Sequence record: NC_054909.1
From: Escherichia phage EC121
Length of the DNA: 64,000 nt
Reading direction: 5' to 3' (one strand)
The position numbers and the translations under genes were made by a program. Shown here piece by piece: positions 2,418 through 61,207 of this stretch. Every line of letters starts with the position of its first letter. Within the stretch, counting starts at the first letter, position 1. The notes beneath the pieces were generated by a model, which saw only the letters and a program-made list of their open reading frames with translations, did not search any database and was not told the origin of the DNA.

Positions 2418-2447
2418 ATTATACCACATCCTTGTGGTAAAGTAAAC
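2418..2447 (-). promoter_or_regulatory. sigma70-type early promoter (GTTTAC, 17 nt, TATAAT)
   Basis: Minus strand reads GTTTACTTTACCACAAGGATGTGGTATAAT just upstream of rIIA.1; a near-identical copy lies at 48692-48721. Confidence 0.6.
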
Positions 2448-4264
2448 TACTGGCTCATCCATTCTTTACGAAGGTCAGCATTATCCCCCATGAGCATTTC
2501 AAAAAGCTCTTTCCAATTCTCAGGAAGTTTAACAACATCATATACTGGGTTTTGAATCATCTCACGATATTCAGATTTTTCCAAAGAGCCAAGTCCCTTA
2601 ATATAACGGATGCTATGTTTAGGTAGAGCATCTTTGGCACTCTCATATTCAGCGACCGTATAAAACCATTCTTGTTTTTTACCGACCTGAGCGATGATTA
2701 CGGGAGTTTTGACGAAGCGAATTCTTCCTTGTTCAAACAGTTCTGGCCAATTACTAAAAAATCCGAGCAGAGAAGGATAAATGCTTCCTAGACCATCGTG
2801 GTCAGCATCAGTCATAATAGCAATATTATGATAATTCAAGTTTTCAGCCTTTTCACCAAGAACTAATCCAGTGATTGCGCAAATATCAAACAGTTCTTTG
2901 TTTTTAAGCATATCAGCATATGACATACCCCAACTGTTGAGAACTTTACCACGTAATGGATAACCGCCATGAAGTTCTTTATCACGAACATCAATAAGAT
3001 ATCCGATAGCAGAATCACCCTCAGTCAAGAAAAGAGTAGTGTCAGCGTCTTTACCGCAAAGATTCGCTTTAATATGTTTATGAACCTTAGCTTTAGAAGC
3101 CTTTTTAGCTGCTTTAGTTTCTGCTGCCTTTTCTGCCGCCAATTTACGAGCCAAAGCAGCTTCAATAATTGGCATTAAAATTGCTTCATTATTTAAAATA
3201 GCACGTGAAATCTTTTTAGCATCAAGCTGAATATGACTACGAATTTCACCAAATGGAGAAGTCAAACGCTCTTTAGTCTGAGAATCAAATCGCATGTTTT
3301 TCATATCACGAACAAACATAACGATAGTCAAACATTCTTTAACCCGTGCTTTAGTTACATCAATTTTGAACTTACGTTTGATTTGTGGAATAAGGTCTTC
3401 ACAAATATCATCCATAACGCAGTCAATGTGATGGCCGCCATTCTTAGTATGAATGTTATTAACGTATGTTAATTGACGAAAACCATCCAGTGAACGACCA
3501 ATCGCAATAGAACAATTTTCTTGTTCTTGAACGATAGCATGCTCATCATATTGGCGTGCGTATTTCTTAAAATTGCCCTGAACCTTTTTACCATTAAAGG
3601 TAAATTGAATATCAGGATAAACTACTGCAAGTGTCTGGAGACGATCTAGTGTAATGTCAAGATAAACCTGAGATAGCTCATTAGTTTCAAATGACATAAA
3701 ATCAGGAATGAAAGTAACACGAGTTCCTTTCCATTTTCCAGGAATAGTTTCCCATGATTTATTTTCCATGCCATTTGAACAACGAACTACAATATTATTT
3801 TGACCATCGCCAGTTTCACCGACAAACATCACAGAAAAAATGTTAGTTAAACTAGAACCAACACCGTTCATACCGCCAGTGACGCGTTCTTTATCATCAC
3901 CGAAGTTACCACCTGCTTTTGGAATAGTCCAGGCGGCAACAGGACCAGGAATTTCTTCGCCAGTAGGTGTTTTAACCATCGCTTGTGGAATACCACGACC
4001 GTTATCTTCAACAGTTACTTGATTGTTTTTAATAGTAACATTAATTTTATTCGCGAATTTAAACTTAGTACGAATACCTTCATCTACCGAGTTATCGATA
4101 ATTTCATCAATAAGCTTAACAAGACCAGGTACATACTGAACACTTTCCCATTTACCAAACAGAAAGCGCTCATGCATTTCATTAGCGGAAGAGCCAATGT
4201 ACATGCCGCTACGCTTTTTGATATGTTCAATATCGCTCAGAATTTTAATTTCATTCTTAATCAT
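2447..4264 (-). CDS. 39: DNA topoisomerase II large subunit, uninterrupted gp39 (T4 gene 39 plus gene 60 as one ORF)
   Basis: 605 aa from ATG at 4264 (track start 4267 is GTG); GyrB-like ATPase N-terminus; C-terminal 160 aa matches recalled T4 gp60 with no bypass gap or mobA insertion. Confidence 0.92.
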   Translation of the reverse strand: MIKNEIKILSDIEHIKKRSGMYIGSSANEMHERFLFGKWESVQYVPGLVKLIDEIIDNSVDEGIRTKFKFANKINVTIKNNQVTVEDNGRGIPQAMVKTPTGEEIPGPVAAWTIPKAGGNFGDDKERVTGGMNGVGSSLTNIFSVMFVGETGDGQNNIVVRCSNGMENKSWETIPGKWKGTRVTFIPDFMSFETNELSQVYLDITLDRLQTLAVVYPDIQFTFNGKKVQGNFKKYARQYDEHAIVQEQENCSIAIGRSLDGFRQLTYVNNIHTKNGGHHIDCVMDDICEDLIPQIKRKFKIDVTKARVKECLTIVMFVRDMKNMRFDSQTKERLTSPFGEIRSHIQLDAKKISRAILNNEAILMPIIEAALARKLAAEKAAETKAAKKASKAKVHKHIKANLCGKDADTTLFLTEGDSAIGYLIDVRDKELHGGYPLRGKVLNSWGMSYADMLKNKELFDICAITGLVLGEKAENLNYHNIAIMTDADHDGLGSIYPSLLGFFSNWPELFEQGRIRFVKTPVIIAQVGKKQEWFYTVAEYESAKDALPKHSIRYIKGLGSLEKSEYREMIQNPVYDVVKLPENWKELFEMLMGDNADLRKEWMSQ

Positions 4265-4317
4265 CACTTATCCTCGTTTGGTTTCGGGAATATTATACTC
4301 CGGTAATCATAAAGCTA

Positions 4318-5155: not shown

Positions 5156-5569
5156 TTATTCCTTAAAGTGAGCTTTCAACATCTGATACAAAGACCATGC
5201 CTGTACATTATTTTCAATAGTAACGTTCATAACCGGGAATTCAGATGGATCAGTTATTGTTGCAGATTCTTCCTGCTCTTCAGCTGCCTGGTATGGATTT
5301 TCAACTTCATTAAAGAATTCAGCTTCATTCGATGAAAGCCAAATAAAATCTTCATCCAAAATATCTTTACCAGAAGATAGTACTAAATTTCCAGCAAATG
5401 ACATAATTTTAATAGGACGCCCAAGAGCATCCACATCTAAAATTTTAAAAGGATGCATACCTAAACGGCGTGCATAGATTCCGTTATCAGTATGGTCTTT
5501 AATAAAATTTTCTTGAGCTTGTTTATTTTTAAATTGATACCATTTATTAACTTCAAATTTAATAGCCAT
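5156..5569 (-). CDS. hypothetical protein
   Basis: 137-aa ORF, tightly packed; acidic C-terminal half. Confidence 0.5.
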
Positions 5570-5784
5570 TAATAAATTTCCTTCCAGTAAGTTGTACCAT
5601 CTTCAGTGATTTCACGAAATACACCGTAAATTGGTTGTTTATCCCCAACCTTTTCATACACATAAACCGAAGTCAAGTGAGTAAACTTAGCAGTGTGTTC
5701 CTTTTGAACTACTACCAAATCTGGATCGAATAACACATCTTCAAATTCGTCATTAGTGCAGCTCTGAACAATTTTACGTTTCAT
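5569..5784 (-). CDS. hypothetical small protein
   Basis: 71-aa ORF with GAGGAA RBS 5 nt upstream of ATG; overlaps downstream start by 1 nt. Confidence 0.5.
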
Positions 5785-5823
5785 TACAATTTCCTCATTA
5801 ATTGAACATTGGAGCGATGCGTT

Positions 5824-5945
5824 TCAGAAGAGTAGCAGCACCTTTGGCAAATTTTCCATTTTATTCTCCAAGTTATTTTCTGTATCAGTAGTTGATATTG
5901 ATATAGTACCATAATCAACTACTGATGTATACAGTTTTATGAAAA
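5824..5945 (-). repeat. promoter-leader cassette copy A (palindromic variant) with 11-codon upstream ORF
   Basis: Shares about 60 nt with copies at 25.1 and 53.1 kb (GGTACTATA..ATCAACTACTGATACAG..TTGGAGAATAAAATG); here a 17-bp inverted repeat flanks the -10 region; leader ATG at 5859 opens MENLPKVLLLF-stop. Confidence 0.5.
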
Positions 5946-5956
5946 AATTTTAAACT

Positions 5957-6445
5957 TTATGCATAGAGAGCTTTGCTATAGTGTTTAATCCAGCTTTCAG
6001 GAATGACTTTGTATGTTCCTAAAAATACCACATTATACAGCTTAACACCGTCTTCTACCCACTGATCGGTAATGTATGCGCACATAGCACGAGTATAAAC
6101 AGCCAAACCATCATCTTTGATAAATTTAAATTCACAAGGAGCAATGAACTTAATAGCCTGACCGAGTTTCCACTTAAAGTCTACACCTACATGCGAAGTA
6201 TCAATCGTTTCAATTCCTTTAGCAGGAACAGCTTTCAAAAACGCAGATTCAAGAAATTTCGCACGAACATAGCCAAACTGAGGTTTAGACTTTCCATCTT
6301 TAGGAATGATACGCACTTTTACTTCAGAATCTTCATCTTTAACGCCGTGTTTAAGCTGAATGCTTACAATTTCGACCAATTTTCCTGCTGCTTTAGAACG
6401 GGATTTATCAGATACACGAGCAATTTCACCAATATTAATAATCAT
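5957..6445 (-). CDS. hypothetical protein, paralog A of a tandem pair (motB-region)
   Basis: 162 aa; C-terminal CAYITDQWVEDGVKLYNVV matches CGWVTDQWIEDGVELLNVV in the next ORF. Confidence 0.55.
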   Translation of the reverse strand: MIINIGEIARVSDKSRSKAAGKLVEIVSIQLKHGVKDEDSEVKVRIIPKDGKSKPQFGYVRAKFLESAFLKAVPAKGIETIDTSHVGVDFKWKLGQAIKFIAPCEFKFIKDDGLAVYTRAMCAYITDQWVEDGVKLYNVVFLGTYKVIPESWIKHYSKALYA

Positions 6446-6489
6446 AGTTATCTCTCACTTGTTAAAAAGATTTTATACTCCACAGGACC

Positions 6490-6519
6490 ATTATACTCTG
6501 GTCCCAAGAGTTTGTAAAC
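6490..6519 (-). promoter_or_regulatory. early promoter (GTTTAC, 18 nt, TATAAT)
   Basis: Minus strand GTTTACAAACTCTTGGGACCAGAGTATAAT between the two paralogs; -10 lies in the loop of a short hairpin. Confidence 0.5.
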
Positions 6520-6521
6520 TA

Positions 6522-7007
6522 TTAATTCAAAATAGCTACCACTGCACTACGAGGTACTACGCTAAAATCACCTGCATGAACAACGTTCAGAAGTTCAACA
6601 CCATCTTCAATCCATTGGTCTGTTACCCAACCACAGACCGAAATAAATGGAGTCTTGATAGCTACTGCACGAGTCAAAAGGTCAGTAGGATCAACTTCTT
6701 TGAAGAGGATAAGCTCTGCTTCAAAGACTATAGTTTTAATTACTTCATCATTATCTAAGCGATGTGCTCGAATCACGTAAGCTTTATTCTTATCATACCA
6801 ATTACTTTTTGAAAAACTTTTAACCACAAACTCGCCTTCACCAAAAACACTAGTCAATGCTTTATAACCCAAATCTAGTTCAGTAGTTTTAATTTCAGTT
6901 TCAACCAGTTTGTAGGTTTTGCCAATTTCGATGGTCCGAGCAGTCATAAAGGTTTCCTTAATTTCTAATGGTTTAACAAGAGTGCCGTACATGCTTGCTA
7001 TATCCAT
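6522..7007 (-). CDS. hypothetical protein, paralog B of a tandem pair
   Basis: 161 aa; shares C-terminal motif with 5957-6445. Confidence 0.55.
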   Translation of the reverse strand: MDIASMYGTLVKPLEIKETFMTARTIEIGKTYKLVETEIKTTELDLGYKALTSVFGEGEFVVKSFSKSNWYDKNKAYVIRAHRLDNDEVIKTIVFEAELILFKEVDPTDLLTRAVAIKTPFISVCGWVTDQWIEDGVELLNVVHAGDFSVVPRSAVVAILN

Positions 7008-7067
7008 ATCAAATATTTTATCTATAGGATTTGGGGGTGTATTCAGGATTATAATTAAATTTCATAA

Positions 7068-7580
7068 TTATCTCATTTCAATAAAATCTACAAGTTCAGC
7101 ATGGGATTTGCGGAACATTACTTGGTGTCCGCCAATGATAACTTCATCTTCAGGAACTTCATAAATCGCAATGTACATTCCACGATCTTTTAAGTCTTCA
7201 CGCTCTTCTCGGGTGAACCATCTCATCATATCATATTCACTAGCGAAAGCAAAATGGTATAATGCAATAAACCGCGATGGAATATACTTTTCAGACGGTG
7301 AATAATTTTTATCCCATTTAGTTTTAATAGCATTATTAGCATTTTCAACTAATAACTTATCATCGTGTGGAATAGGAATACTTTCATGGCTTTCATAATT
7401 ATCGCTATGATGATGAAATGACGATGAATTAATACCACAAAATTTTAGCCAAGTTCGAGTTTTCATAGAATCAAATCCACGATAAGGAGTTGATTGCACG
7501 CATAACTCTTGCCTAATTTTCACTATACCACTATCATCATTTAATGCGCTAAACGATGATTCAACACGATAAATTTTCAT
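7068..7580 (-). CDS. hypothetical protein
   Basis: Track ORF trimmed to ATG at 7580 (MKIYRVESS...) with GAGGATAATAAA RBS; the longer track start falls inside the promoter. Confidence 0.5.
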   Translation of the reverse strand: MKIYRVESSFSALNDDSGIVKIRQELCVQSTPYRGFDSMKTRTWLKFCGINSSSFHHHSDNYESHESIPIPHDDKLLVENANNAIKTKWDKNYSPSEKYIPSRFIALYHFAFASEYDMMRWFTREEREDLKDRGMYIAIYEVPEDEVIIGGHQVMFRKSHAELVDFIEMR

Positions 7581-11558: not shown

Positions 11559-12161
11559 TTATAGATTAAATCCTTCAAAATCAAGAGTATAGATAGTGTA
11601 TGTTGAATACTTTTTATACTCATATCTATCTGCAATTCTAAATACACTTCCAGCTGGTATCATTACTTCCTGTTCATCTGAAACTAATTCCATATTACGA
11701 TAACGATGGCTATCTGGAAACTTAAAACTCGGACTATATTCTTTACAACGTAGAGCTTTTATAGCATACTCCTGGAAATTAAACACCATAGGAGCTTTGA
11801 ATTCAAAAATAACTTGTGTGTTGTATTCTAATCCAGAAGCAAAGTGTAGAGCTATATTTTTATCATATGAAGCTGATACTACTTTATCAAATGTAATAAT
11901 ATCAATTCCTTGATTTAACACCTGTTTAGTCTCAACTGGAACACCTCTCCAAAGAGGTTTATCGTTTGGAACCAAACGAGATTTGATTATTTCATTTAAC
12001 CAAGAATGATCGTCTGGCTTATTAGTAATACAATGAATTAAAAGTTCAATTTCGGATAAATTAAATCCTTCAGAAAGTAATTCTTCACGAATAGAAGCAC
12101 GCACCGATGCATCCATTGATTTGATTTTAAAATCTTTTAATTGCATTGCTGAATATTTCAT
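11559..12161 (-). CDS. modA: ADP-ribosyltransferase ModA
   Basis: 200 aa; R-S-E triad context (WRGV..., SAS, EQEVMIP); size matches T4 ModA. Confidence 0.75.
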   Translation of the reverse strand: MKYSAMQLKDFKIKSMDASVRASIREELLSEGFNLSEIELLIHCITNKPDDHSWLNEIIKSRLVPNDKPLWRGVPVETKQVLNQGIDIITFDKVVSASYDKNIALHFASGLEYNTQVIFEFKAPMVFNFQEYAIKALRCKEYSPSFKFPDSHRYRNMELVSDEQEVMIPAGSVFRIADRYEYKKYSTYTIYTLDFEGFNL

Positions 12162-12781
12162 TCAACTACCTCAACATCATACACTTTAAATGTTCCAAAT
12201 GAATCGTGTAATTTTTCTTTTGAAATAGAAGTTATTTTATACTTTCCAATTGGAATCATCCATTCTTGTTCACGTACAATCATCATTAAGTTATCAGTAC
12301 GTTCTGAATCTAATCCATCAGTATCTTCATATGTATACTTAAACTCAGTATTAGGAGAAGAAAGTATAATATCGCTGATATGGTCAGAATAATTAAAAGC
12401 TTTATCAGTTTTTAAGCGAAATATTATTTCAGTGGAATATTCAACATAAGAAAAAGAACACGCTGTGTGCAAACTAGTAGTAAATGAATCTACTCTGCTC
12501 GTTGAAAACACTTCTCCGACTTGTAAATCTTTAATGAGTTCTTTTGTCGATTTTGATATACCACGATATAGCTGATAAGGCGATTTAGTTAAATGCTTTT
12601 TAACGATTTTATTCAACTGCTGATGAAGAGCTTCATTCTTTTTGGCTTCCATACATTGCCAAAGAATTGACTGTTCAAAGTCAGTAAATTTTTCACAGAC
12701 CTTTTTATACATATCATATTGAAAATCGACACTTTCAGCTTTTATAGATAACTGTTCAACATCTGCAAGATTAATAATCAT
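12158..12781 (-). CDS. modB: ADP-ribosyltransferase ModB
   Basis: 207 aa; paralog of ModA with YRGIS, STS, EQEWMIP motifs; 4-nt overlap with modA. Confidence 0.75.
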   Translation of the reverse strand: MIINLADVEQLSIKAESVDFQYDMYKKVCEKFTDFEQSILWQCMEAKKNEALHQQLNKIVKKHLTKSPYQLYRGISKSTKELIKDLQVGEVFSTSRVDSFTTSLHTACSFSYVEYSTEIIFRLKTDKAFNYSDHISDIILSSPNTEFKYTYEDTDGLDSERTDNLMMIVREQEWMIPIGKYKITSISKEKLHDSFGTFKVYDVEVVE

Positions 12782-14675: not shown

Positions 14676-14887
14676 TACAAAAAGCCTCTTTGAAATTCGA
14701 CTCTTTGAAATCCACCCCAGTCAGTATATCGCATTTCAGCATTGAACTCGACTGAACCATCTGCATGCATCATGAATGAATGCGTGACGATATCACAATC
14801 CCAGCTTTTCATACCCCATTTATCAGAGATAGCTTTATCAAGAACCTTCTGGAGGTCTTCATTTGGTTTAATCCAACGATTTAACAT
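14675..14887 (-). CDS. small hypothetical protein (srh position)
   Basis: 70-aa ORF; GAGGAG RBS; first gene after the promoter at 14914-14943. Confidence 0.5.
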   Translation of the reverse strand: MLNRWIKPNEDLQKVLDKAISDKWGMKSWDCDIVTHSFMMHADGSVEFNAEMRYTDWGGFQRVEFQRGFL

Positions 14888-15303: not shown

Positions 15304-15822
15304 TTAATAACCTCGGTCTTGACGAGCGAAGTTTTCAGCATTTTTCAGATAATAAAGTTTAAAGATTTCTTCAGCCGTAAGACCGAGACCTTGGAACATG
15401 TTCAGAACGAAATGAAGAATATCAATCATTTCGAATTTAATTTCCAACTGGTCTTGTGGAGATAAATCAGTAATCAGAGTTTCACGACGTTCACCGTGTT
15501 GCGACTTCCAAGGCTTCCATACAGCAGACGCATCTTTTTCGCCATTGCTCATACCACCAAGAGAAGTCAGAAGTTCGCGGAATTCATCATCAATATAATC
15601 TTTCTGATTACGCAGCCAATCAACAACTTCACCTGCAGTAGCCAAATCATCAGGATGACGGTTATATTCAGGTTTATCTTTAGCTAAACGAACTTGCAGA
15701 GATTTCTGCATATCAAGCATAACCTGCAGCGGGTCTTTTTCATCACCGAGAATATCCCAGTATTCATTTTGAGCTTTATCAGCGCCTTCAATCAGTTGAC
15801 TACATTCGTTAAAGTATGCCAT
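15304..15822 (-). CDS. 56: dCTPase/dUTPase gp56
   Basis: 172 aa from ATG at 15822 (track over-extends with a hydrophobic N-terminus); matches recalled T4 gp56; GAAAGGA RBS. Confidence 0.9.
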   Translation of the reverse strand: MAYFNECSQLIEGADKAQNEYWDILGDEKDPLQVMLDMQKSLQVRLAKDKPEYNRHPDDLATAGEVVDWLRNQKDYIDDEFRELLTSLGGMSNGEKDASAVWKPWKSQHGERRETLITDLSPQDQLEIKFEMIDILHFVLNMFQGLGLTAEEIFKLYYLKNAENFARQDRGY

Positions 15823-15855
15823 TATTTTTCCTTTCAATTCATGGGTTAGTAGATT

Positions 15856-15880
15856 AATTATACAATAAATATATAAAGCA
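15856..15880 (-). promoter_or_regulatory. candidate MotA-dependent middle promoter for gene 56
   Basis: Minus strand TTGCTTTA (MotA box), 11 nt, TATAAT. Confidence 0.5.
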
Positions 15881-15893
15881 ATAAGGAGGATAT

Positions 15894-16094
15894 ATGGTAC
15901 AAAAATTAATGGCACTTGTTAATGCCATAAAAGGTAATAAAAAACGTATAGCTTTTACTATTTCTGCTATGGTAGGAATTTTACTCTGGAATTTTGTTTT
16001 ATCACCAATTGCTATTGCTCATGGTGTTAATATTCCAGTAATTACTCTTGATACATTCGTAGATTTAGCATTTGCTTTAGTTGGGTTAATTTAA
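15894..16094 (+). CDS. small hydrophobic protein encoded on the plus strand
   Basis: 66-aa ORF with strong SD AAGGAGGA 4 nt before the ATG; two predicted TM segments; sits in a 270-nt gap with no minus-strand ORF. Confidence 0.45.
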   Translation: MVQKLMALVNAIKGNKKRIAFTISAMVGILLWNFVLSPIAIAHGVNIPVITLDTFVDLAFALVGLI

Positions 16095-17119
16095 ATCTTA
16101 GCATATTTAGATAGCCGCATTTTAGCCATCAACCCTTGAGCAATATTATTTTTCATATATTCCATAATTTGTTCAGGGGTTGCACCTTCCTTTCTAATCA
16201 TATCATTAACATCTTTTGATTTCCAGGGAGATTTGTCCCAAAACATAACCCTTTCTCCTGCATCAACTAATTTAGTCATTCGTTTAATAGTGTCAGGGTG
16301 ACGAGGTTCATTATCTAAAACCCATACACGTCTATCTTTAAATGGAACAATTTCTAGGTCTAATTGACCACCCGTAATAGCTATACCATTTTCAATAAAA
16401 AGTGAATCTATAGGTCCTTCTAGAACATATACATCACCATCTTTGACTCGTTCAACTCCATAGATTTTTGTTGCCTCAGGATAAGCTTTGATGGTGATAT
16501 ATTTTTGAGGAGCATCTTTCTTTAATGCACGTCCTTGAAAAGACTCGGCTTTTCCGTTAGCATTATAAATTGGAATAACAAGACGAGGCTCGGGCATTTC
16601 CTTTTTATATGTTCCTGGCGCTATACTATTAACTAATTTAGGCCATTCGGTTGTAAACCAAAGATATTTCCATTTATCCTTTGGAATACAACGAGCTTTT
16701 ACATATTTTATAATTGGATGGTCTTCCGCCAGTTTATCTAGTCTAATGCATGACGGAAGAGATTTAATTATTTTCTTCTCAGGTTGTTTAGAAAGTTCTT
16801 TAGGTTTTTCTACTGGACGACTTTTACCTTTTTCTTTTCTTATTTCAAAGATATACTCACGATATAAATCAGGTTCAAACTCCTTTAAATATATTCCGAT
16901 TGGTGCATGATAGTTACAGTTATAACAATGAATATTTCCTTCATTATTATCGCCATAATACCATCCACGGGCTTTATTTTGATCGGTTTTTGAATCTCCA
17001 CAAACAGGACATCTAAACCGTAATTTAAAAGTTGAACTATTATTTACTTGTGCGAATTTAGGTAAATGAGCTAATGCACGGTATGCAAACTCATTATCAA
17101 TCCAAGGTATTGATGACAT
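16091..17119 (-). CDS. 61: DNA primase gp61
   Basis: 342 aa; zinc ribbon CPVCGDS...CYNC and TOPRIM region; matches recalled T4 gp61. Confidence 0.96.
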   Translation of the reverse strand: MSSIPWIDNEFAYRALAHLPKFAQVNNSSTFKLRFRCPVCGDSKTDQNKARGWYYGDNNEGNIHCYNCNYHAPIGIYLKEFEPDLYREYIFEIRKEKGKSRPVEKPKELSKQPEKKIIKSLPSCIRLDKLAEDHPIIKYVKARCIPKDKWKYLWFTTEWPKLVNSIAPGTYKKEMPEPRLVIPIYNANGKAESFQGRALKKDAPQKYITIKAYPEATKIYGVERVKDGDVYVLEGPIDSLFIENGIAITGGQLDLEIVPFKDRRVWVLDNEPRHPDTIKRMTKLVDAGERVMFWDKSPWKSKDVNDMIRKEGATPEQIMEYMKNNIAQGLMAKMRLSKYAKI

Positions 17120-17287: not shown

Positions 17288-17914
17288 TTAACCTCTATTC
17301 ATAAAAGCATTAAAAATTTGGTCATCAATAGAAACATTTACTTTAGACTGTTTTTCTGATGGTAATTCATATCCACATATTACAATTTTGTGATCAATAT
17401 CAAAATACACAGAAGCAATATGATTAATGATGTTTTCAGTAAAGTCTAAATCAACATCAATATCTTTTTGACCACAGCCCAAAGGATAAATAATGCGAGT
17501 AATTCGATTATCTTTAACAAAGATTCCACCGATATACTCTGTGCTGCGTTTAAAGTCTACACGCCGACGAAATGAAAAATATTCAGGCTCTTTATGAGCT
17601 CTGCTCATAGGACACAACGAGTAACTAGAATAAGAGATGTCAAATCCTACGCCTTCGATATGAGCCAAAGTGTCATGATTAAACCAATTATAATCGTACG
17701 CCAAATCCATTAGATTATAATATGTAAAGGGCACCGGATTAACATCATTAGTCACAAGCATGTAATTAGCAACTGCTATAATTTCATTGTTTTTAACGAA
17801 TACAAACCGTGATTGATGTGAATGACCTGGACCCGCGTTTTCACGATTAATGATATAACACTGGGCACCTTTATATTTGTATGTATCTTTGCACTTGTGC
17901 ATTTGATAGAGCAT
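17288..17914 (-). CDS. hypothetical protein (61.x region)
   Basis: 208-aa ORF between spackle and primase. Confidence 0.55.
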   Translation of the reverse strand: MLYQMHKCKDTYKYKGAQCYIINRENAGPGHSHQSRFVFVKNNEIIAVANYMLVTNDVNPVPFTYYNLMDLAYDYNWFNHDTLAHIEGVGFDISYSSYSLCPMSRAHKEPEYFSFRRRVDFKRSTEYIGGIFVKDNRITRIIYPLGCGQKDIDVDLDFTENIINHIASVYFDIDHKIVICGYELPSEKQSKVNVSIDDQIFNAFMNRG

Positions 17915-55184: not shown

Positions 55185-55739
55185 TCACTTTGAAATCATA
55201 GTTGGAATGACAGAATCAAGATAAGTCTTTAGTGCAATAGCTTCATCTTTGGTAAATGTGACAATATGTGCTCGAGAATCATCAATTTGGCGAACAAGTA
55301 CGACATCGCCATCTTCATAAGAAGTCTTGACATCCAAAGTCGTAGTATAATTTGCAGCTACTGGATTAATAATGCTAGCACCGCGATCTTTAGCCCATTG
55401 AAGTTTAGCCTTTTCGGGTGTTTCGATTGTTTCAGATTCCAAGAATTCTTTCACCTTGGTAACGAATGTTGCCCAATTGTTGATAGAAAGACACATAAAT
55501 TCAGTTTCAATATTACCGCCGTAAAGGCCACGATAAAAACGAACTTGGAGGTCGCCTGTAATATTAGTTACACCGGTAACTCCTGAGGGAGCATAAGATA
55601 AAATCGCAGCCAGTTCCATAGGAAGAATAGTAATATTATCGTCTTCCTGCGTCAGAACGTATACATTATCACGTTTTTCGATAACCAGGTCACCGAACAA
55701 ATCAGTTGTTTCAATTACAGCTTTCATATTATTTACCAA
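55185..55739 (-). CDS. hypothetical protein, tandem paralog 2
   Basis: 184 aa; C-terminus ...DEAIALKTYLDSVIPTMISK. Confidence 0.5.
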   Translation of the reverse strand: MVNNMKAVIETTDLFGDLVIEKRDNVYVLTQEDDNITILPMELAAILSYAPSGVTGVTNITGDLQVRFYRGLYGGNIETEFMCLSINNWATFVTKVKEFLESETIETPEKAKLQWAKDRGASIINPVAANYTTTLDVKTSYEDGDVVLVRQIDDSRAHIVTFTKDEAIALKTYLDSVIPTMISK

Positions 55740-57869: not shown

Positions 57870-58451
57870 CTAACCGAGCTTTTTAGTTAATTCGTTCCAG
57901 TGTTTTCTACACAAAGAAACATAAATTTCATCACCAATACAGATTTGATTACCTTCTTTAACTGGTGTTCCATCTTCCATTAATCGAGCTGTCATAATCG
58001 CTTTTTTGCCGCAATGACAAACTGCCTTTAGTTCAATAAGTTTATCTGCAATCGCTAAAAGTTCTTTAGAACCTTCAAACAATTTTCCAGCGAAATCAGT
58101 CCTTAATCCATAAGCCATAACAGGAACATTATATGTATCAACAATTCGGCTTAATTGGTGCACCTGTTCAGTTTTTAAAAACTGAGCTTCATCTACAAAT
58201 ACGCAATGAATATCTTTTTGTGCTTCAGCCCATTTATAGAACTCGAAAATATCCATATCATCTGTAATAATATTCGCTTCCTGTTTAATTCCAATGCGAG
58301 AAACGACTTCGCAGACAGAATCGCGAGTATCAATAGCAGGCTTAAGAACTAATACACCCATTCCACGTTCTTTATAATTATGTGCAGCAGTCAAAAGAGA
58401 AGCAGATTTTCCAGCATTCATTGCTGCATAAGTAAAAATTAAACTCGCCAT
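57870..58451 (-). CDS. tk: thymidine kinase
   Basis: 193 aa; P-loop AAMNAGKS and zinc-binding cysteines near the C-terminus. Confidence 0.95.
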   Translation of the reverse strand: MASLIFTYAAMNAGKSASLLTAAHNYKERGMGVLVLKPAIDTRDSVCEVVSRIGIKQEANIITDDMDIFEFYKWAEAQKDIHCVFVDEAQFLKTEQVHQLSRIVDTYNVPVMAYGLRTDFAGKLFEGSKELLAIADKLIELKAVCHCGKKAIMTARLMEDGTPVKEGNQICIGDEIYVSLCRKHWNELTKKLG

Positions 58452-58452
58452 C

Positions 58453-58641
58453 TTAGTCCTTAGTTAAATTTTCTAAATATGTTTCTAAATCATTTTCAGC
58501 TTTATCGATAGATTTTACTAATTCGTAATATGTTTCGGCATCTCCATATTCAGAAGATATTTCAAAAGACAAATCCTTTTCTAAACTAACAATTTCACTA
58601 ACTAAAAATAATATTTCGTTCTTTTGTTCGCGAGTAATCAT
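58453..58641 (-). CDS. small acidic helical protein (tk.1 position)
   Basis: 62-aa ORF; same family pattern as the 55.7-56.7 kb array. Confidence 0.5.
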   Translation of the reverse strand: MITREQKNEILFLVSEIVSLEKDLSFEISSEYGDAETYYELVKSIDKAENDLETYLENLTKD

Positions 58642-58823
58642 AATGAATTTATATAATCAATGAGTTCTTGTTCTTTATTATCGAATTCTTTAGAAAGTTC
58701 TTCGTACTCGTTTGCACTAAAAGGACCGCATTCATTACAAACTTTTTCCAATTCGCTATTTTTATCCATAACTTCGTGGATAAGAGAAAAGAGTTTGTCT
58801 TTTTGTTCTTTACTCAGACTCAT
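58638..58823 (-). CDS. small acidic helical protein (tk.2 position)
   Basis: 61-aa ORF, ATGA-coupled. Confidence 0.5.
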   Translation of the reverse strand: MSLSKEQKDKLFSLIHEVMDKNSELEKVCNECGPFSANEYEELSKEFDNKEQELIDYINSL

Positions 58824-58993
58824 ATATTAAATCCTAGAAGTTTTAAGATAATTCGCTTTTGCTTAAATATTTCCATCGTTAAATGATCAGTATCTTTTTG
58901 ACCAATTCCAATAGCAAAACCCTTATTTACGGCAAGTTCAATTAAATTATCAATATTGCGTAAAACTTCATAGCGTAACTCAAAATTATTCAT
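58820..58993 (-). CDS. small hypothetical protein (tk.3 position)
   Basis: 57-aa ORF not in the track; ATGA overlaps on both sides. Confidence 0.4.
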   Translation of the reverse strand: MNNFELRYEVLRNIDNLIELAVNKGFAIGIGQKDTDHLTMEIFKQKRIILKLLGFNI

Positions 58994-59217
58994 TTTGGTT
59001 CACCTTCTTTAACGAAATCCGGATAAGGATTAAATCCAGAATAAAATCCTTCACCTTTATGATTGCTACAACCCTTGTTCGAGCAATAGCACCAATAATC
59101 GAAATCACAAGCCATTTCATCGTTGCATAAAGCAAAAACAACCGGCCACTTACACTTTTCACAGTGGGCATTTTTAAGAATACTAGTTTGGCTCATAACC
59201 ATGTAACCTTTAAGCAA
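58990..59217 (-). CDS. Cys-rich small protein (tk.4 position)
   Basis: 75-aa ORF with about 9 Cys (HCEKCKWP...CNDEMACDFDYWCYCSNKGCSNH), likely metal-binding. Confidence 0.5.
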   Translation of the reverse strand: MLKGYMVMSQTSILKNAHCEKCKWPVVFALCNDEMACDFDYWCYCSNKGCSNHKGEGFYSGFNPYPDFVKEGEPK

Positions 59218-59405
59218 TATTCTTCTACATGTTGTTTACGACCTTTCTTATCAATAAAGGTATATTCAACGAATGTTCCAATGTAGTCTTTATCTACATC
59301 ATGTGGACTATTAATTGGACATTTAGTACGGCAAATGCGTTCCCATTGACGAATAATTACTGCTTTGTTTTTAGGATCAAACGGATGCGGGTAATGTACT
59401 TTCAT
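59193..59405 (-). CDS. small hypothetical protein
   Basis: 70-aa ORF with one CxxxC pair. Confidence 0.45.
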   Translation of the reverse strand: MKVHYPHPFDPKNKAVIIRQWERICRTKCPINSPHDVDKDYIGTFVEYTFIDKKGRKQHVEEYCLKVTWL

Positions 59406-59856
59406 AATCCACCACTATTAAATCAATATCAGGAGTAAACATGTCGATTAATTTAGAAACCTTATCCCAATCGCCGCCAGCAATACCACAACCTATACGC
59501 GGAATGTAAATTACTGGTTTAAACAAAAGGGTTTCTGCCTGTAGATTTAATTCTATCATGCAGTTTACTAAAGCACCATAATCAAGATTAGGACCTGGTT
59601 CGTATTGCGTATACAGGTTATAGCATATGCCAAAACCATTAGGTTTATGTTTAAAAACAATAGACATATCGCCTAATTTATCACGAGAACCGTACTCAGT
59701 AGTGGTTTTATCTATTTCTAAAATTTTGGGATAGGCTCTTGCTAATTGACCCGCTACGCCTGAACCCATAGTATGAAAACAATTGCACCCGTGCGCAATA
59801 ATATTACCTTGAAGAAATAGGGCGACAATATCGCCCTTGATATATTTTACAATCAT
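59377..59856 (-). CDS. macro-domain-like protein (possible ADP-ribose binding or hydrolysis)
   Basis: 159 aa; GDI...QGNIIAHGCNCFHTMGSGVAGQLA and IPRIGCGIAGGDW resemble the macro-domain nucleotide-binding loops; judged by eye. Confidence 0.5.
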   Translation of the reverse strand: MIVKYIKGDIVALFLQGNIIAHGCNCFHTMGSGVAGQLARAYPKILEIDKTTTEYGSRDKLGDMSIVFKHKPNGFGICYNLYTQYEPGPNLDYGALVNCMIELNLQAETLLFKPVIYIPRIGCGIAGGDWDKVSKLIDMFTPDIDLIVVDYESTLPASV

Positions 59857-60200
59857 CTAGTACTCAATCCTCGATTATAAGAATCTACTAAACGGTCAAC
59901 CATTGAATGACAAGCGGCTTTATCTTTCTCCTCCGCAACTGAACATTCTAAGGTATTCCACTTTTTAGCATATCGTTTTAACAATGTATCATTTTTGTAT
60001 CTGCTTGATTTATCTCTTTCTCCGTCTTTATATGCATATATTAATTTCTGCGCAAATTCAGCTTGGCATGCTTTATTTTTCCCACAATAATCCGCGGCAG
60101 TACGGTTTACATACTCTCTAATTTCAGTATATGATGTATCTGCTGATGCAGAAGCAGAAAATGAAATTAATCCTATACATAAAACCAAAATTTTAGTCAT
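59853..60200 (-). CDS. secreted protein
   Basis: 115 aa; cleavable signal peptide MTKILVLCIGLISFSASASA. Confidence 0.5.
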   Translation of the reverse strand: MTKILVLCIGLISFSASASADTSYTEIREYVNRTAADYCGKNKACQAEFAQKLIYAYKDGERDKSSRYKNDTLLKRYAKKWNTLECSVAEEKDKAACHSMVDRLVDSYNRGLSTR

Positions 60201-60738
60201 TTACTATTTCCAAAAGTTTATTATTTTTAAGGTAATTAGCCTTTTCTAGGACTTCAGAAGCATATTTAGAACCTGCTTTAACATTCCATCCCGAATTATA
60301 AGAGGATATCGCCTTTCTTATATCGCCCTTATGTATATTTAACCAATAAGAAAGTTCAATGTACGCCCAGGAAGCTGAATTGGACCGTTTATTCAACATT
60401 CTTTTTATTTCAGCATCGGTCATATTATAACCAAGTTCCTTAACTCTTGCTCGCATGGTCGGCAAATAATTTTGGAACATTCCATAGGCATGATGCTTTG
60501 GTTTAGATTTTAAATTAACTCCGGCAGAGCTTTCTTGCCATAAAATAGCAGCCATTATATGACCCAATCCGCTCTTGTGGATATTTTTGTGTGTTTTATA
60601 TTTTCCATCCTTAGAAAATTGTTCCCCGAATTGATATGCGTAACGCATGTTATCGAGTTGGACATTACTGAAAGTATGCTCGGAGCTATGTGCCATCATT
60701 GAAATGGCCAATAGACCAGCGAGTAGTGCTTTTCTCAT
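60193..60738 (-). CDS. periplasmic lytic transglycosylase-like protein
   Basis: 181 aa; signal peptide; ILWQESSAG...YGMFQ resembles the SLT catalytic E-S...G-MQ motif. Confidence 0.55.
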   Translation of the reverse strand: MRKALLAGLLAISMMAHSSEHTFSNVQLDNMRYAYQFGEQFSKDGKYKTHKNIHKSGLGHIMAAILWQESSAGVNLKSKPKHHAYGMFQNYLPTMRARVKELGYNMTDAEIKRMLNKRSNSASWAYIELSYWLNIHKGDIRKAISSYNSGWNVKAGSKYASEVLEKANYLKNNKLLEIVND

Positions 60739-60745
60739 GCTTACC

Positions 60746-61207
60746 TCATTGAGTTTTAATTACTGCTTTAGAAGCCTTTCCTGGTAAACGACGACTGTTG
60801 ATAATTGCCATCCTGCACTGAAGCGACGGGTCTTTGAACTTTGCATTAGGTTTACAAACTGTAAATCCAAGCCAAAGATTTCCATCTGTGATTTCTAAAC
60901 GCCCAGGGCGATATTCAACCCCATCAATAAAATCCTCATCAATGTCAGGACGCGGAGGCATACTCAGGAATTCATTAACTTCTAAAACATGGTCTTTTAT
61001 TTTGTGGAATAATTCAAAAACATATGTCTCATCAATCTCCCGTTGAATTGCACGATCAAGAAGATGCTGAGAATATTTTAGATGAAACGATGAGACTCCT
61101 GCTGCTTTTGATGCCTCACGAATCTCATTGTTAATTTGACGAAACTCCGACTCAAAGTGACGACGGAGCTTATTTCGACGGATAAAAACTTCTGTGTTGA
61201 TAGTCAT
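60746..61207 (-). CDS. regB: RegB endoribonuclease
   Basis: 153 aa; size, position and sequence as recalled for T4 RegB. Confidence 0.8.
   Translation of the reverse strand: MTINTEVFIRRNKLRRHFESEFRQINNEIREASKAAGVSSFHLKYSQHLLDRAIQREIDETYVFELFHKIKDHVLEVNEFLSMPPRPDIDEDFIDGVEYRPGRLEITDGNLWLGFTVCKPNAKFKDPSLQCRMAIINSRRLPGKASKAVIKTQ

What the first reader, a model, noticed from the sequence alone, without database searches (positions are those of the whole stretch)
59377..59856. Macro-domain-like gene in a phage that encodes ADP-ribosyltransferases
The 159-aa ORF carries both glycine-rich loops typical of macro domains (NIIAHGCNCFHTMGSGVAG and IPRIGCGIAGGDW). The same window encodes ModA and ModB, which ADP-ribosylate host proteins. 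As far as I recall, T4 has only tk.1-tk.4 between tk and vs, so this ORF and the 70-aa ORF before it look like accessory insertions. A phage macro domain could reverse or read ADP-ribosylation, or counter host ADP-ribosylating defences such as DarT-type toxins.
Basis: partly seen in the sequence, partly recalled or inferred. Interest (0 to 1): 0.6.

Follow-up and report, generated by a model that had tools for sequence, protein, structure and literature searches.

The report
T4 tk.4 (AdfM) macrodomain, divergent allele
The ORF is a real macro-domain gene, but it is this phage's copy of the known T4 gene tk.4 (recently named adfM), which protects T4 from the bacterial DarTG2 defence that ADP-ribosylates DNA, so the finding is correct but already known.

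Summary
The 159-aa ORF at 59377..59856 (- strand) exists and is a bona fide macro domain: Pfam PF01661 scores 33.1 bits against a cutoff of 22, the AlphaFold2 model has pLDDT 93.8, and the best PDB fold matches are TARG1, Poa1p, BT1257 and DarG macrodomains. It is not an accessory insertion. It sits exactly where T4 tk.4 sits, between tk.3 and vs, and is 57% identical to T4 Tk.4. The 70-aa ORF before it is tk.3 (96% identical). The real insertions relative to T4 are two small ORFs at 58820..59217. Two points go beyond the literature. First, the family has an invariant Gln84 where DarG and TARG1 have their catalytic Lys, as in Streptomyces SCO6735, a proven thymidine-ADP-ribose hydrolase. Second, tk.4 exists as two old allele lineages that cross genus boundaries. 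The window carries the lineage with the canonical IGCGIAGGDW loop, whereas the T4 allele that was tested belongs to the other lineage. Verdict: already known, modest interest.

The parts
59377..59856 (-). tk.4 / adfM ortholog: a stand-alone 159-aa macro domain of the allele lineage with the canonical IGCGIAGGDW loop. Key residues are H22, G23, N25, Q84, G122 and G124.
   Evidence: ORF. Pfam Macro 33.1 bits. 57% identity to T4 Tk.4. AF2 pLDDT 93.8. Foldseek top PDB hits are TARG1, Poa1p, BT1257 and DarG macrodomains. Invariant residues from a 51-sequence alignment.
59380..59732 (-). Divergent block within tk.4, covering about the C-terminal two thirds of the protein, with only about 40-65% DNA identity to T4. 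The 5' ~125 nt of the gene (59733..59856) and both flanks are T4-like, so the allele is mosaic or replaced.
   Evidence: 50-nt sliding identity of the window/T4 alignment. Per-gene protein identities.
59193..59405 (-). tk.3 ortholog (70 aa, DUF7202). Its start overlaps the 3' end of tk.4 by 29 nt. It is not an insertion.
   Evidence: 96% identity to T4 Tk.3. PF23832 at 132 bits.
59853..60200 (-). vs (valyl-tRNA synthetase modifier), the upstream neighbour. Its TGA stop overlaps the tk.4 ATG (ATGA), which suggests co-transcription and translational coupling.
   Evidence: 100% identity to T4 Vs. Sequence read.
58820..59217 (-). The true insertion relative to T4: a 57-aa ORF (phrog_3452) and a 75-aa ORF (PF23895, phage zinc-binding domain). 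It is context only and not part of the macro-domain function.
   Evidence: Gap in the T4 alignment. Pfam and PHROG hits. The same ORFs are annotated in phage BECP11.

Best explanation
The ORF is this Tequatrovirus's ortholog of T4 tk.4, recently renamed adfM (anti-DarT factor macrodomain). It is most likely a stand-alone ADP-ribosyl glycohydrolase, expressed from the tk-vs-regB leftward early/middle gene block. Its proposed job is to remove the ADP-ribose that the host DarT2 toxin attaches to thymidines in single-stranded phage DNA, so that replication can go on. What is shown for this window protein: the macro fold, the intact ADP-ribose-binding loops and orthology by position. What is shown elsewhere: genetics for the T4 allele only, and in-vitro removal of DarT2-made ADP-ribose from DNA for two related enzymes, SCO6735 and PhiKZ gp104, but not for any Tk.4 protein. 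What is inferred: that this 57%-identical allele has the same target, and that catalysis follows the SCO6735-type route. In that route Gln84, held by Asn25, positions the distal ribose and a water molecule, instead of the catalytic Lys used by DarG and TARG1.
For: The gene sits in the same slot as T4 tk.4 and is 57% identical to it at E=1e-69. The flanking genes are 96-100% identical to T4. T4 tk.4 was the only significant HIDEN-SEQ hit under DarTG2, and a knockout sensitised T4. The best NCBIfam match is the DarG antitoxin model, aligned over the macro domain only. The fold matches TARG1, Poa1p, BT1257 and DarG macrodomains at TM about 0.73-0.78. Gln84 aligns with TARG1 Lys84 and with SCO6735 Gln85. 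In the same alignment H22, N25 and G124 match SCO6735 H24, N27 and G128. Those SCO6735 residues were shown by mutagenesis to matter for dT-ADP-ribose hydrolysis (PMC9411070). H22, G23, N25, Q84, G122 and G124 are invariant in 51 family members.
Against: No enzyme assay exists for any Tk.4 protein. The T4 evidence is genetic and comes from a preprint. The tested T4 allele belongs to the other allele lineage and differs in the phosphate-binding loop (IGAGIGKGNW versus IGCGIAGGDW). The window protein scores only 27.7 bits on the DarG model, against 137.8 bits for PhiKZ gp104. It lacks the 5-residue Lys-bearing extension of the SCO6735 mobile loop that aids DNA binding. Poa1p, an ADP-ribose-1''-phosphate phosphatase, is an equally good fold match.
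Confidence: 0.65

Rival explanations
1. The fold and chemistry are the same but the target differs. This allele lineage would be tuned to another ADP-ribosylated substrate, such as a different DarT variant, ADP-ribosylated RNA or glutamate/aspartate-linked protein ADP-ribose, rather than the DarT2 product countered by the T4 allele.
For: The window and T4 alleles are only 56-57% identical in a 96-100% identical background, and they differ in the phosphate-binding loop. The two lineages persist across genera. SCO6735, which has the same Gln-type site, acts on both DNA and protein substrates.
Against: All active-site residues that are invariant in the family are kept in both lineages. Several other genes in the window are just as divergent from T4 (motB.1 50%, mrh.2 57%, mobD.1 48%), so divergence alone need not mean a new specificity. 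T-even phages are sensitive to the mRNA ADP-ribosyltransferase system CmdTAC (abstract of PMC11618068), so at least their alleles do not neutralise that system.
Confidence: 0.15
2. It is a small-molecule enzyme, an ADP-ribose-1''-phosphate phosphatase or O-acetyl-ADP-ribose deacetylase. This is the classical 'phosphatase / A1pp' annotation.
For: RefSeq annotates T4 Tk.4 as 'phosphatase; contains A1pp phosphatase motif'. Yeast Poa1p is among the best sequence and fold matches. The His of the Poa1p H23A mutant aligns with H22.
Against: The T4 phenotype is specific to DarTG2. As far as I know, the T4 RNA repair pathway (Pnkp plus Rnl1) does not generate ADP-ribose-1''-phosphate (my own knowledge, not tested here).
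Confidence: 0.1
3. It reverses or reads the ADP-ribosylation made by the phage's own Alt, ModA and ModB enzymes.
For: ModA and ModB are encoded in the same window.
Against: The genes are 47 kb apart and show no linkage. Alt, ModA and ModB make arginine-linked ADP-ribose, which is reversed by ARH/DraG-type enzymes rather than by macro domains (established knowledge, not tested here). The same macro family occurs in about 2770 phage records from many genera, although I did not check how many of these lack Mod-type transferases.
Confidence: 0.04
4. It is a non-catalytic binder that blocks DarT2 directly or merely sequesters ADP-ribose.
For: Catalytically dead SCO6735 Q85A still inhibits DarT through interaction.
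Against: The catalytic-site residues are invariant across the family. The protein has no extra DarT-binding domain of the kind found in DarG (159 aa, macro domain only).
Confidence: 0.05

Closest known systems
Phage T4 Tk.4 / AdfM (NP_049723; bioRxiv 10.1101/2025.11.20.689424)
   Same: It occupies the same position between tk.3 and vs, has a similar length (155 versus 159 aa), is 57% identical, has the same invariant H/N/Q/G residues, and has a near-identical N-terminal ~45 residues.
   Different: The C-terminal two thirds come from a different allele lineage. The phosphate-binding loop is IGCGIAGGDW here and IGAGIGKGNW in T4. Only the T4 allele has been tested.
Streptomyces coelicolor SCO6735 (PDB 5E3B), an ALC1-like macrodomain that hydrolyses thymidine-linked ADP-ribose on DNA
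   Same: It has Gln at the catalytic position (Q84 here, Q85 in SCO6735), a conserved His and Asn in loop 1, and a PRIGCG[IL]AGGxW loop.
   Different: Overall sequence similarity is low. The window protein lacks the 5-residue longer mobile loop with Lys89 and Lys94, and has Gly23 where SCO6735 has Val25. SCO6735 is a bacterial chromosomal gene.
DarG antitoxin macrodomain (PDB 5M3I, 5M31; NCBIfam NF048014) and PhiKZ gp104, also called 'AdfM' (PMC13309987)
   Same: Both have the macro fold and the ALC1-like class. The proposed reaction is the same: removal of DarT2-made ADP-ribose from DNA.
   Different: DarG and gp104 carry the FPTK catalytic Lys and are close to each other (gp104 against Mtb DarG, E=9e-25; 137.8 bits on NF048014). 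The window protein has Gln, scores 27.7 bits and matches gp104 only weakly (BLASTP E=0.001). DarG also has a C-terminal DarT-binding domain that is absent here.
Human TARG1/OARD1 (PDB 4J5R), yeast Poa1p (6LFR) and Bacteroides BT1257 (2FG1/2AFC)
   Same: These are the best fold and profile matches. BT1257 shares the Gln and the GCGLAGGKW loop.
   Different: The TARG1 Lys84/Asp125 dyad is replaced by Gln84/Ala126. Poa1p acts on a small molecule. BT1257 has no known function.

Membership tests
Macro domain (Pfam PF01661) | Profile match above the curated gathering score | tested here: met
   33.1 bits against a cutoff of 22, E=6.2e-08, residues 22-136 covering profile positions 2-117 of 118.
Macro domain (Pfam PF01661) | Three-layer alpha/beta/alpha macro fold | tested here: met
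   AF2 model with pLDDT 93.8 and pTM 0.89 and alternating strands and helices. There are 164 Foldseek PDB matches at E<=0.001; all 50 listed matches but a few designed hydrolases are macro domains, with TM 0.73-0.78 for the best.
Macro domain (Pfam PF01661) | Two Gly-rich ADP-ribose-binding loops, with the conserved Asn in loop 1 | tested here: met
   H22-G-C-N25...G31-S-G33-V-A35 and P119-R-I-G122-C-G124-I-A-G-G-D-W130. H22, G23, N25, G33, A35, P119, G122, G124 and W130 are invariant in 51 sequences.
T4 Tk.4 / AdfM orthologous group | Position between tk.3 and vs in a T4-type genome | tested here: met
   T4 annotation. tblastn of the T4 neighbours tk, tk.1, tk.2, tk.3, vs, vs.1 and regB gives 96-100% identity in collinear order.
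T4 Tk.4 / AdfM orthologous group | Full-length sequence homology to T4 Tk.4 | tested here: met
   57% identity over 155 aa without gaps, E=1e-69.
T4 Tk.4 / AdfM orthologous group | Protects the phage from DarTG2 | not testable with these tools
   Shown only for the T4 allele, by Tn-seq and knockout.
DarG antitoxin (NCBIfam NF048014, equivalog) | Score at or above the curated cutoff | tested here: not met
   27.7 bits against a cutoff of 250.
DarG antitoxin (NCBIfam NF048014, equivalog) | Catalytic Lys (Lys80 of T. aquaticus DarG) | tested here: not met
   Gln84 occupies the position of TARG1 Lys84 and of SCO6735 Gln85, which PMC9411070 equates with DarG Lys80. The direct profile alignment to the Lys-bearing gp104 is poorly resolved in this segment.
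DarG antitoxin (NCBIfam NF048014, equivalog) | Two-domain protein with a C-terminal DarT-binding domain, encoded next to darT | tested here: not met
   The protein is 159 aa with a macro domain only, and its neighbours are tk.3 and vs.
SCO6735-type (Gln) ALC1-like macrodomain | Equivalents of His24, Asn27, Gln85 and Gly128 | tested here: met
   H22, N25, Q84 and G124 align with chain residues H44, N47, Q105 and G148 of 5E3B, which carries a 20-residue tag offset. Residue roles are from PMC9411070. The alignment was obtained with a chimeric query, but residues 1-112 were the window protein's own.
SCO6735-type (Gln) ALC1-like macrodomain | Extended mobile loop with Lys89 and Lys94 | tested here: not met
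   There is a 5-residue gap in the window protein right after Q84-Y85 relative to SCO6735.
TARG1-type terminal ADP-ribose glycohydrolase | Lys84/Asp125 catalytic dyad | tested here: not met
   The profile alignment puts Q84 opposite Lys84 and A126 opposite Asp125.

The most novel reading that the evidence does not exclude
tk.4/adfM exists as at least two ancient allele lineages that move between Tevenvirinae genera by recombination. Type A has IGCGIAGGDW and is found in this window and in Dhakavirus KIT01. Type B has IGAGIG[KG]GNW and is found in T4 and in Mosigvirus mobillu. The lineages may have different specificities towards DarT2 variants or other ADP-ribosylating defences, so the T4 result would not simply transfer to the roughly 300 sequenced phages that carry the window's type. 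Both lineages would use a Gln-based, SCO6735-like mechanism and not the Lys mechanism of DarG, which would make 'AdfM' of T4 and 'AdfM' of PhiKZ two independent recruitments of different macrodomain subfamilies.
Probability: 0.25. Interest if true: 0.5.

Novelty: already known. Interest (0 to 1): 0.25.

Why it matters
The finding adds no new kind of system. T4 tk.4 has been annotated with a macro (A1pp) motif for years, and a 2025 preprint showed it to be an anti-DarTG2 factor. Macro domains are reported in about 41% of myoviruses (PMC9503650). The useful residue is practical. The allele tested in T4 is the atypical one. This window carries the allele with the family-consensus active-site loop, which is found at 90% identity or more in about 311 phage records, against about 224 records for the T4 type. 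The Gln-for-Lys active site also gives a concrete mutagenesis target (Q84, N25) for working out how phage macrodomains clean ADP-ribose off DNA.

Tried and rejected
- **Accessory insertion:** rejected. The T4 alignment shows that the ORF is tk.4 and that the insertion lies at 58820-59195.
- **Membership of the DarG equivalog:** rejected on score, on the catalytic Lys, on domain architecture and on gene context.
- **Direct relationship to PhiKZ gp104 'AdfM':** only remote, with BLASTP E=0.001 over 33 aa and hhalign probability 96%. The hhalign register around the catalytic position was unreliable and I did not use it.
- **Own promoter or terminator for the gene:** the scan found fewer promoter-like sites than shuffled sequence gave (11 against 14.6) and none upstream of tk.4. 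The hairpins at 59782-59837 lie inside the coding region and I treated them as chance.
- **First structure job:** I rebuilt the alignment without it.
- **Alignment to SCO6735:** HMMER prints only the top five alignments, so I used a chimeric query made of window residues 1-112 plus the SCO6735 C-terminal motif. This served only to display the alignment.

Full report
**Observation.** The window is a T4-type (Tequatrovirus) genome segment that starts at rIIA. The region 58400-60800 is 98.5% identical to Escherichia phage vB_EcoM-BECP11 and matches 724 phage records. It scores 33.1 bits on Pfam Macro (PF01661, gathering cutoff 22, E=6.2e-08), covering almost the whole profile. It also scores E=1.8e-71 on phrog_335 'phosphatase'. 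The large protein collection holds 794 homologues at E<=0.001, and tblastn matches occur in 2772 phage records. ModA (11562..12161), ModB (12161..12781) and gp61.2/AdfA (17291..17914) are encoded in the window, all on the - strand. The sequence observation is therefore real.

**Synteny.** The claim that the ORF is an accessory insertion absent from T4 is wrong. The T4 RefSeq record has, between tk and vs, tk.1 (62 aa), tk.2 (61 aa), tk.3 (70 aa) and tk.4 (155 aa, 'phosphatase; contains A1pp phosphatase motif').
- The window ORF is 57% identical to T4 Tk.4 over 155 aa without gaps (E=1e-69).
- The 70-aa ORF at 59193..59405 is 96% identical to Tk.3.
- A DNA alignment with T4 shows one insertion of about 375 bp at 58820-59195. 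It carries a 57-aa ORF (phrog_3452) and a 75-aa ORF (PF23895, phage zinc-binding domain).

**A divergent allele.** Tk, Tk.1, Tk.2, Tk.3, Vs, Vs.1 and RegB are 96-100% identical to T4, whereas Tk.4 is 57% identical. At the DNA level the divergence (40-65% identity) is confined to about 59380-59732. The first ~125 nt of the gene and both flanks are T4-like.

Comparison with two other genera shows two old allele lineages:

| Pair | Tk.4 identity | Identity of other genes in the block |
|---|---|---|
| Window vs T4 (same genus) | 56% | 96-100% |
| Window vs KIT01 (Dhakavirus) | 76% | 46-74% |
| T4 vs mobillu (Mosigvirus) | 84% | 66-81%, except Tk.3 at 100% |

- The window lineage has the phosphate-binding loop IGCGIAGGDW, which is the family consensus. 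The T4 lineage has IGAGIG[KG]GNW.
- About 311 phage records carry the window type at 90% identity or more, and about 224 carry the T4 type.
- This mosaicism is not unique to tk.4. MotB.1 (50%), MotB.2 (60%), Mrh.2 (57%), gp56 (73%) and MobD.1 (48%) are similarly divergent in the same window. It should therefore not be over-read as a special arms-race signature.

**Fold and class.**
- An AlphaFold2 model built on a 51-sequence alignment has mean pLDDT 93.8 and pTM 0.89.
- The top Foldseek PDB matches are TARG1, Poa1p, BT1257 and the DarG macrodomains of T. aquaticus and M. tuberculosis, with TM 0.73-0.78.
- Sequence searches of the PDB give the same set plus Streptomyces SCO6735.
- The best NCBIfam match is the DarG antitoxin model. 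The score is only 27.7 bits against a cutoff of 250, and the match covers the macro domain alone.
- The protein therefore belongs to the ALC1-like/TARG1-like class of macro domains but is not a DarG.

**Active site.** Invariant residues in the family are H22, G23, N25, C26, G33, A35, D49, G62, N80, Y82, Q84, P119, G122, G124 and W130.
- In the profile alignment to TARG1, Q84 lies opposite the catalytic Lys84 and A126 lies opposite Asp125.
- In an alignment to SCO6735 (5E3B, 20-residue tag offset), H22, N25, Q84 and G124 align with His24, Asn27, Gln85 and Gly128.
- PMC9411070 reports that SCO6735 hydrolyses thymidine-linked ADP-ribose on DNA and lacks the Lys of DarG and TARG1. It also reports that Q85A abolishes activity, that Asn27 locks Gln85 in place, and that G128E reduces activity.
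- The window protein lacks SCO6735's 5-residue longer, Lys-bearing mobile loop.
- I infer a SCO6735-like, Gln-based mechanism rather than the Lys mechanism. This is inference, not a test.

**Published function.** A bioRxiv preprint (Humolli et al., 10.1101/2025.11.20.689424) reports that tk.4 was the single significant hit when a T4 transposon library infected a DarTG2-expressing host. It also reports that a clean knockout sensitised T4 to DarTG2. The authors renamed the gene adfM and suggested that it removes ADP-ribose from DNA. This fits earlier work showing that T4 lacking adfA and adfN remains resistant to DarTG2 (PMC11825919).

Independently, a Cell Reports paper used the same name AdfM for PhiKZ gp104 and showed in vitro that it removes DarT2-made ADP-ribose from DNA (PMC13309987). 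That protein is a different subfamily:
- It has the DarG-type FPTK lysine.
- It matches M. tuberculosis DarG at E=9e-25.
- It scores 137.8 bits on the DarG model.
- It resembles the window protein only weakly, although PHROGs lumps both into phrog_335.

**Mechanism and rivals.** The best-supported reading (confidence about 0.65) is that the window gene is an anti-DarT2 DNA ADP-ribosyl glycohydrolase.
- It is co-transcribed with vs, since the vs TGA stop overlaps the tk.4 ATG.
- It would act on thymidine-linked ADP-ribose in phage single-stranded DNA.
- The rivals are a shifted substrate specificity of this allele lineage (0.15), a small-molecule Appr-1''-p phosphatase or deacetylase role as in the old annotation (0.10), a non-catalytic binder (0.05), and reversal of the phage's own ModA/ModB/Alt arginine ADP-ribosylation (0.04).
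- The last rival is disfavoured because macro domains are not known to cleave Arg-linked ADP-ribose (my own knowledge).

**Verdict.** The sequence observation is correct and the functional guess about DarT-type toxins is borne out by published genetics on the T4 ortholog. The 'insertion not in T4' argument is wrong, and the gene is already known (T4 tk.4/adfM). Interest is low to modest. The untested remainder is whether the two allele lineages differ in specificity and whether catalysis is Gln-based.

Noticed in passing
window 58820..59217 (- strand): Two small ORFs absent from T4 are inserted between tk.2 and tk.3: a 57-aa ORF (phrog_3452) and a 75-aa ORF (PF23895 phage zinc-binding domain, phrog_2306). 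Both have unknown function and both are also present in phage BECP11.
   Followed up: partly
window 59377..59856; L001 4923-5390; L004 1801-2268; L005 1801-2268: tk.4 alleles cross genus lines. The window allele is closer to that of a Dhakavirus (76%) than to T4's (56%), and the T4 allele is closer to that of a Mosigvirus (84%). Flanking genes follow the genus relationships.
   Followed up: partly
window 15304..17119: No dam methyltransferase gene is present. tblastn with T4 Dam finds nothing in the window, and only about 180 bp separate the gene 56 ORF (15304..15915) from gene 61 (16091..17119). segF is also missing at its T4 position.
   Followed up: partly
window 2447..4267 (- strand): The topoisomerase II large subunit is one uninterrupted 606-aa ORF. 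In T4 it is split into genes 39 and 60, with mobA, 60.1 and the gene 60 translational bypass element. mobA and 60.1 give no hit in the window.
   Followed up: partly
window 5159..7580, 14678..14887, 15307..15822, 55188..55724: Several other genes are highly divergent alleles relative to T4, in an otherwise 95-100% identical background: goF 76%, motB.1 50%, motB.2 60%, mrh.2 57%, gene 56 73%, mobD.1 48%.
   Followed up: no
literature (no window coordinates): There is a name clash. 'AdfM' is used both for T4 Tk.4 (bioRxiv 10.1101/2025.11.20.689424) and for PhiKZ gp104 (PMC13309987). The two belong to different macrodomain subfamilies: Gln-type in T4 and DarG-like Lys-type in PhiKZ.
   Followed up: yes
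window 59819..59837 and 59782..59799: Two G+C-rich hairpin-forming inverted repeats lie inside the 5' part of the tk.4 coding sequence, and the terminator scan flagged them. They are probably chance or coding-constrained.
   Followed up: no
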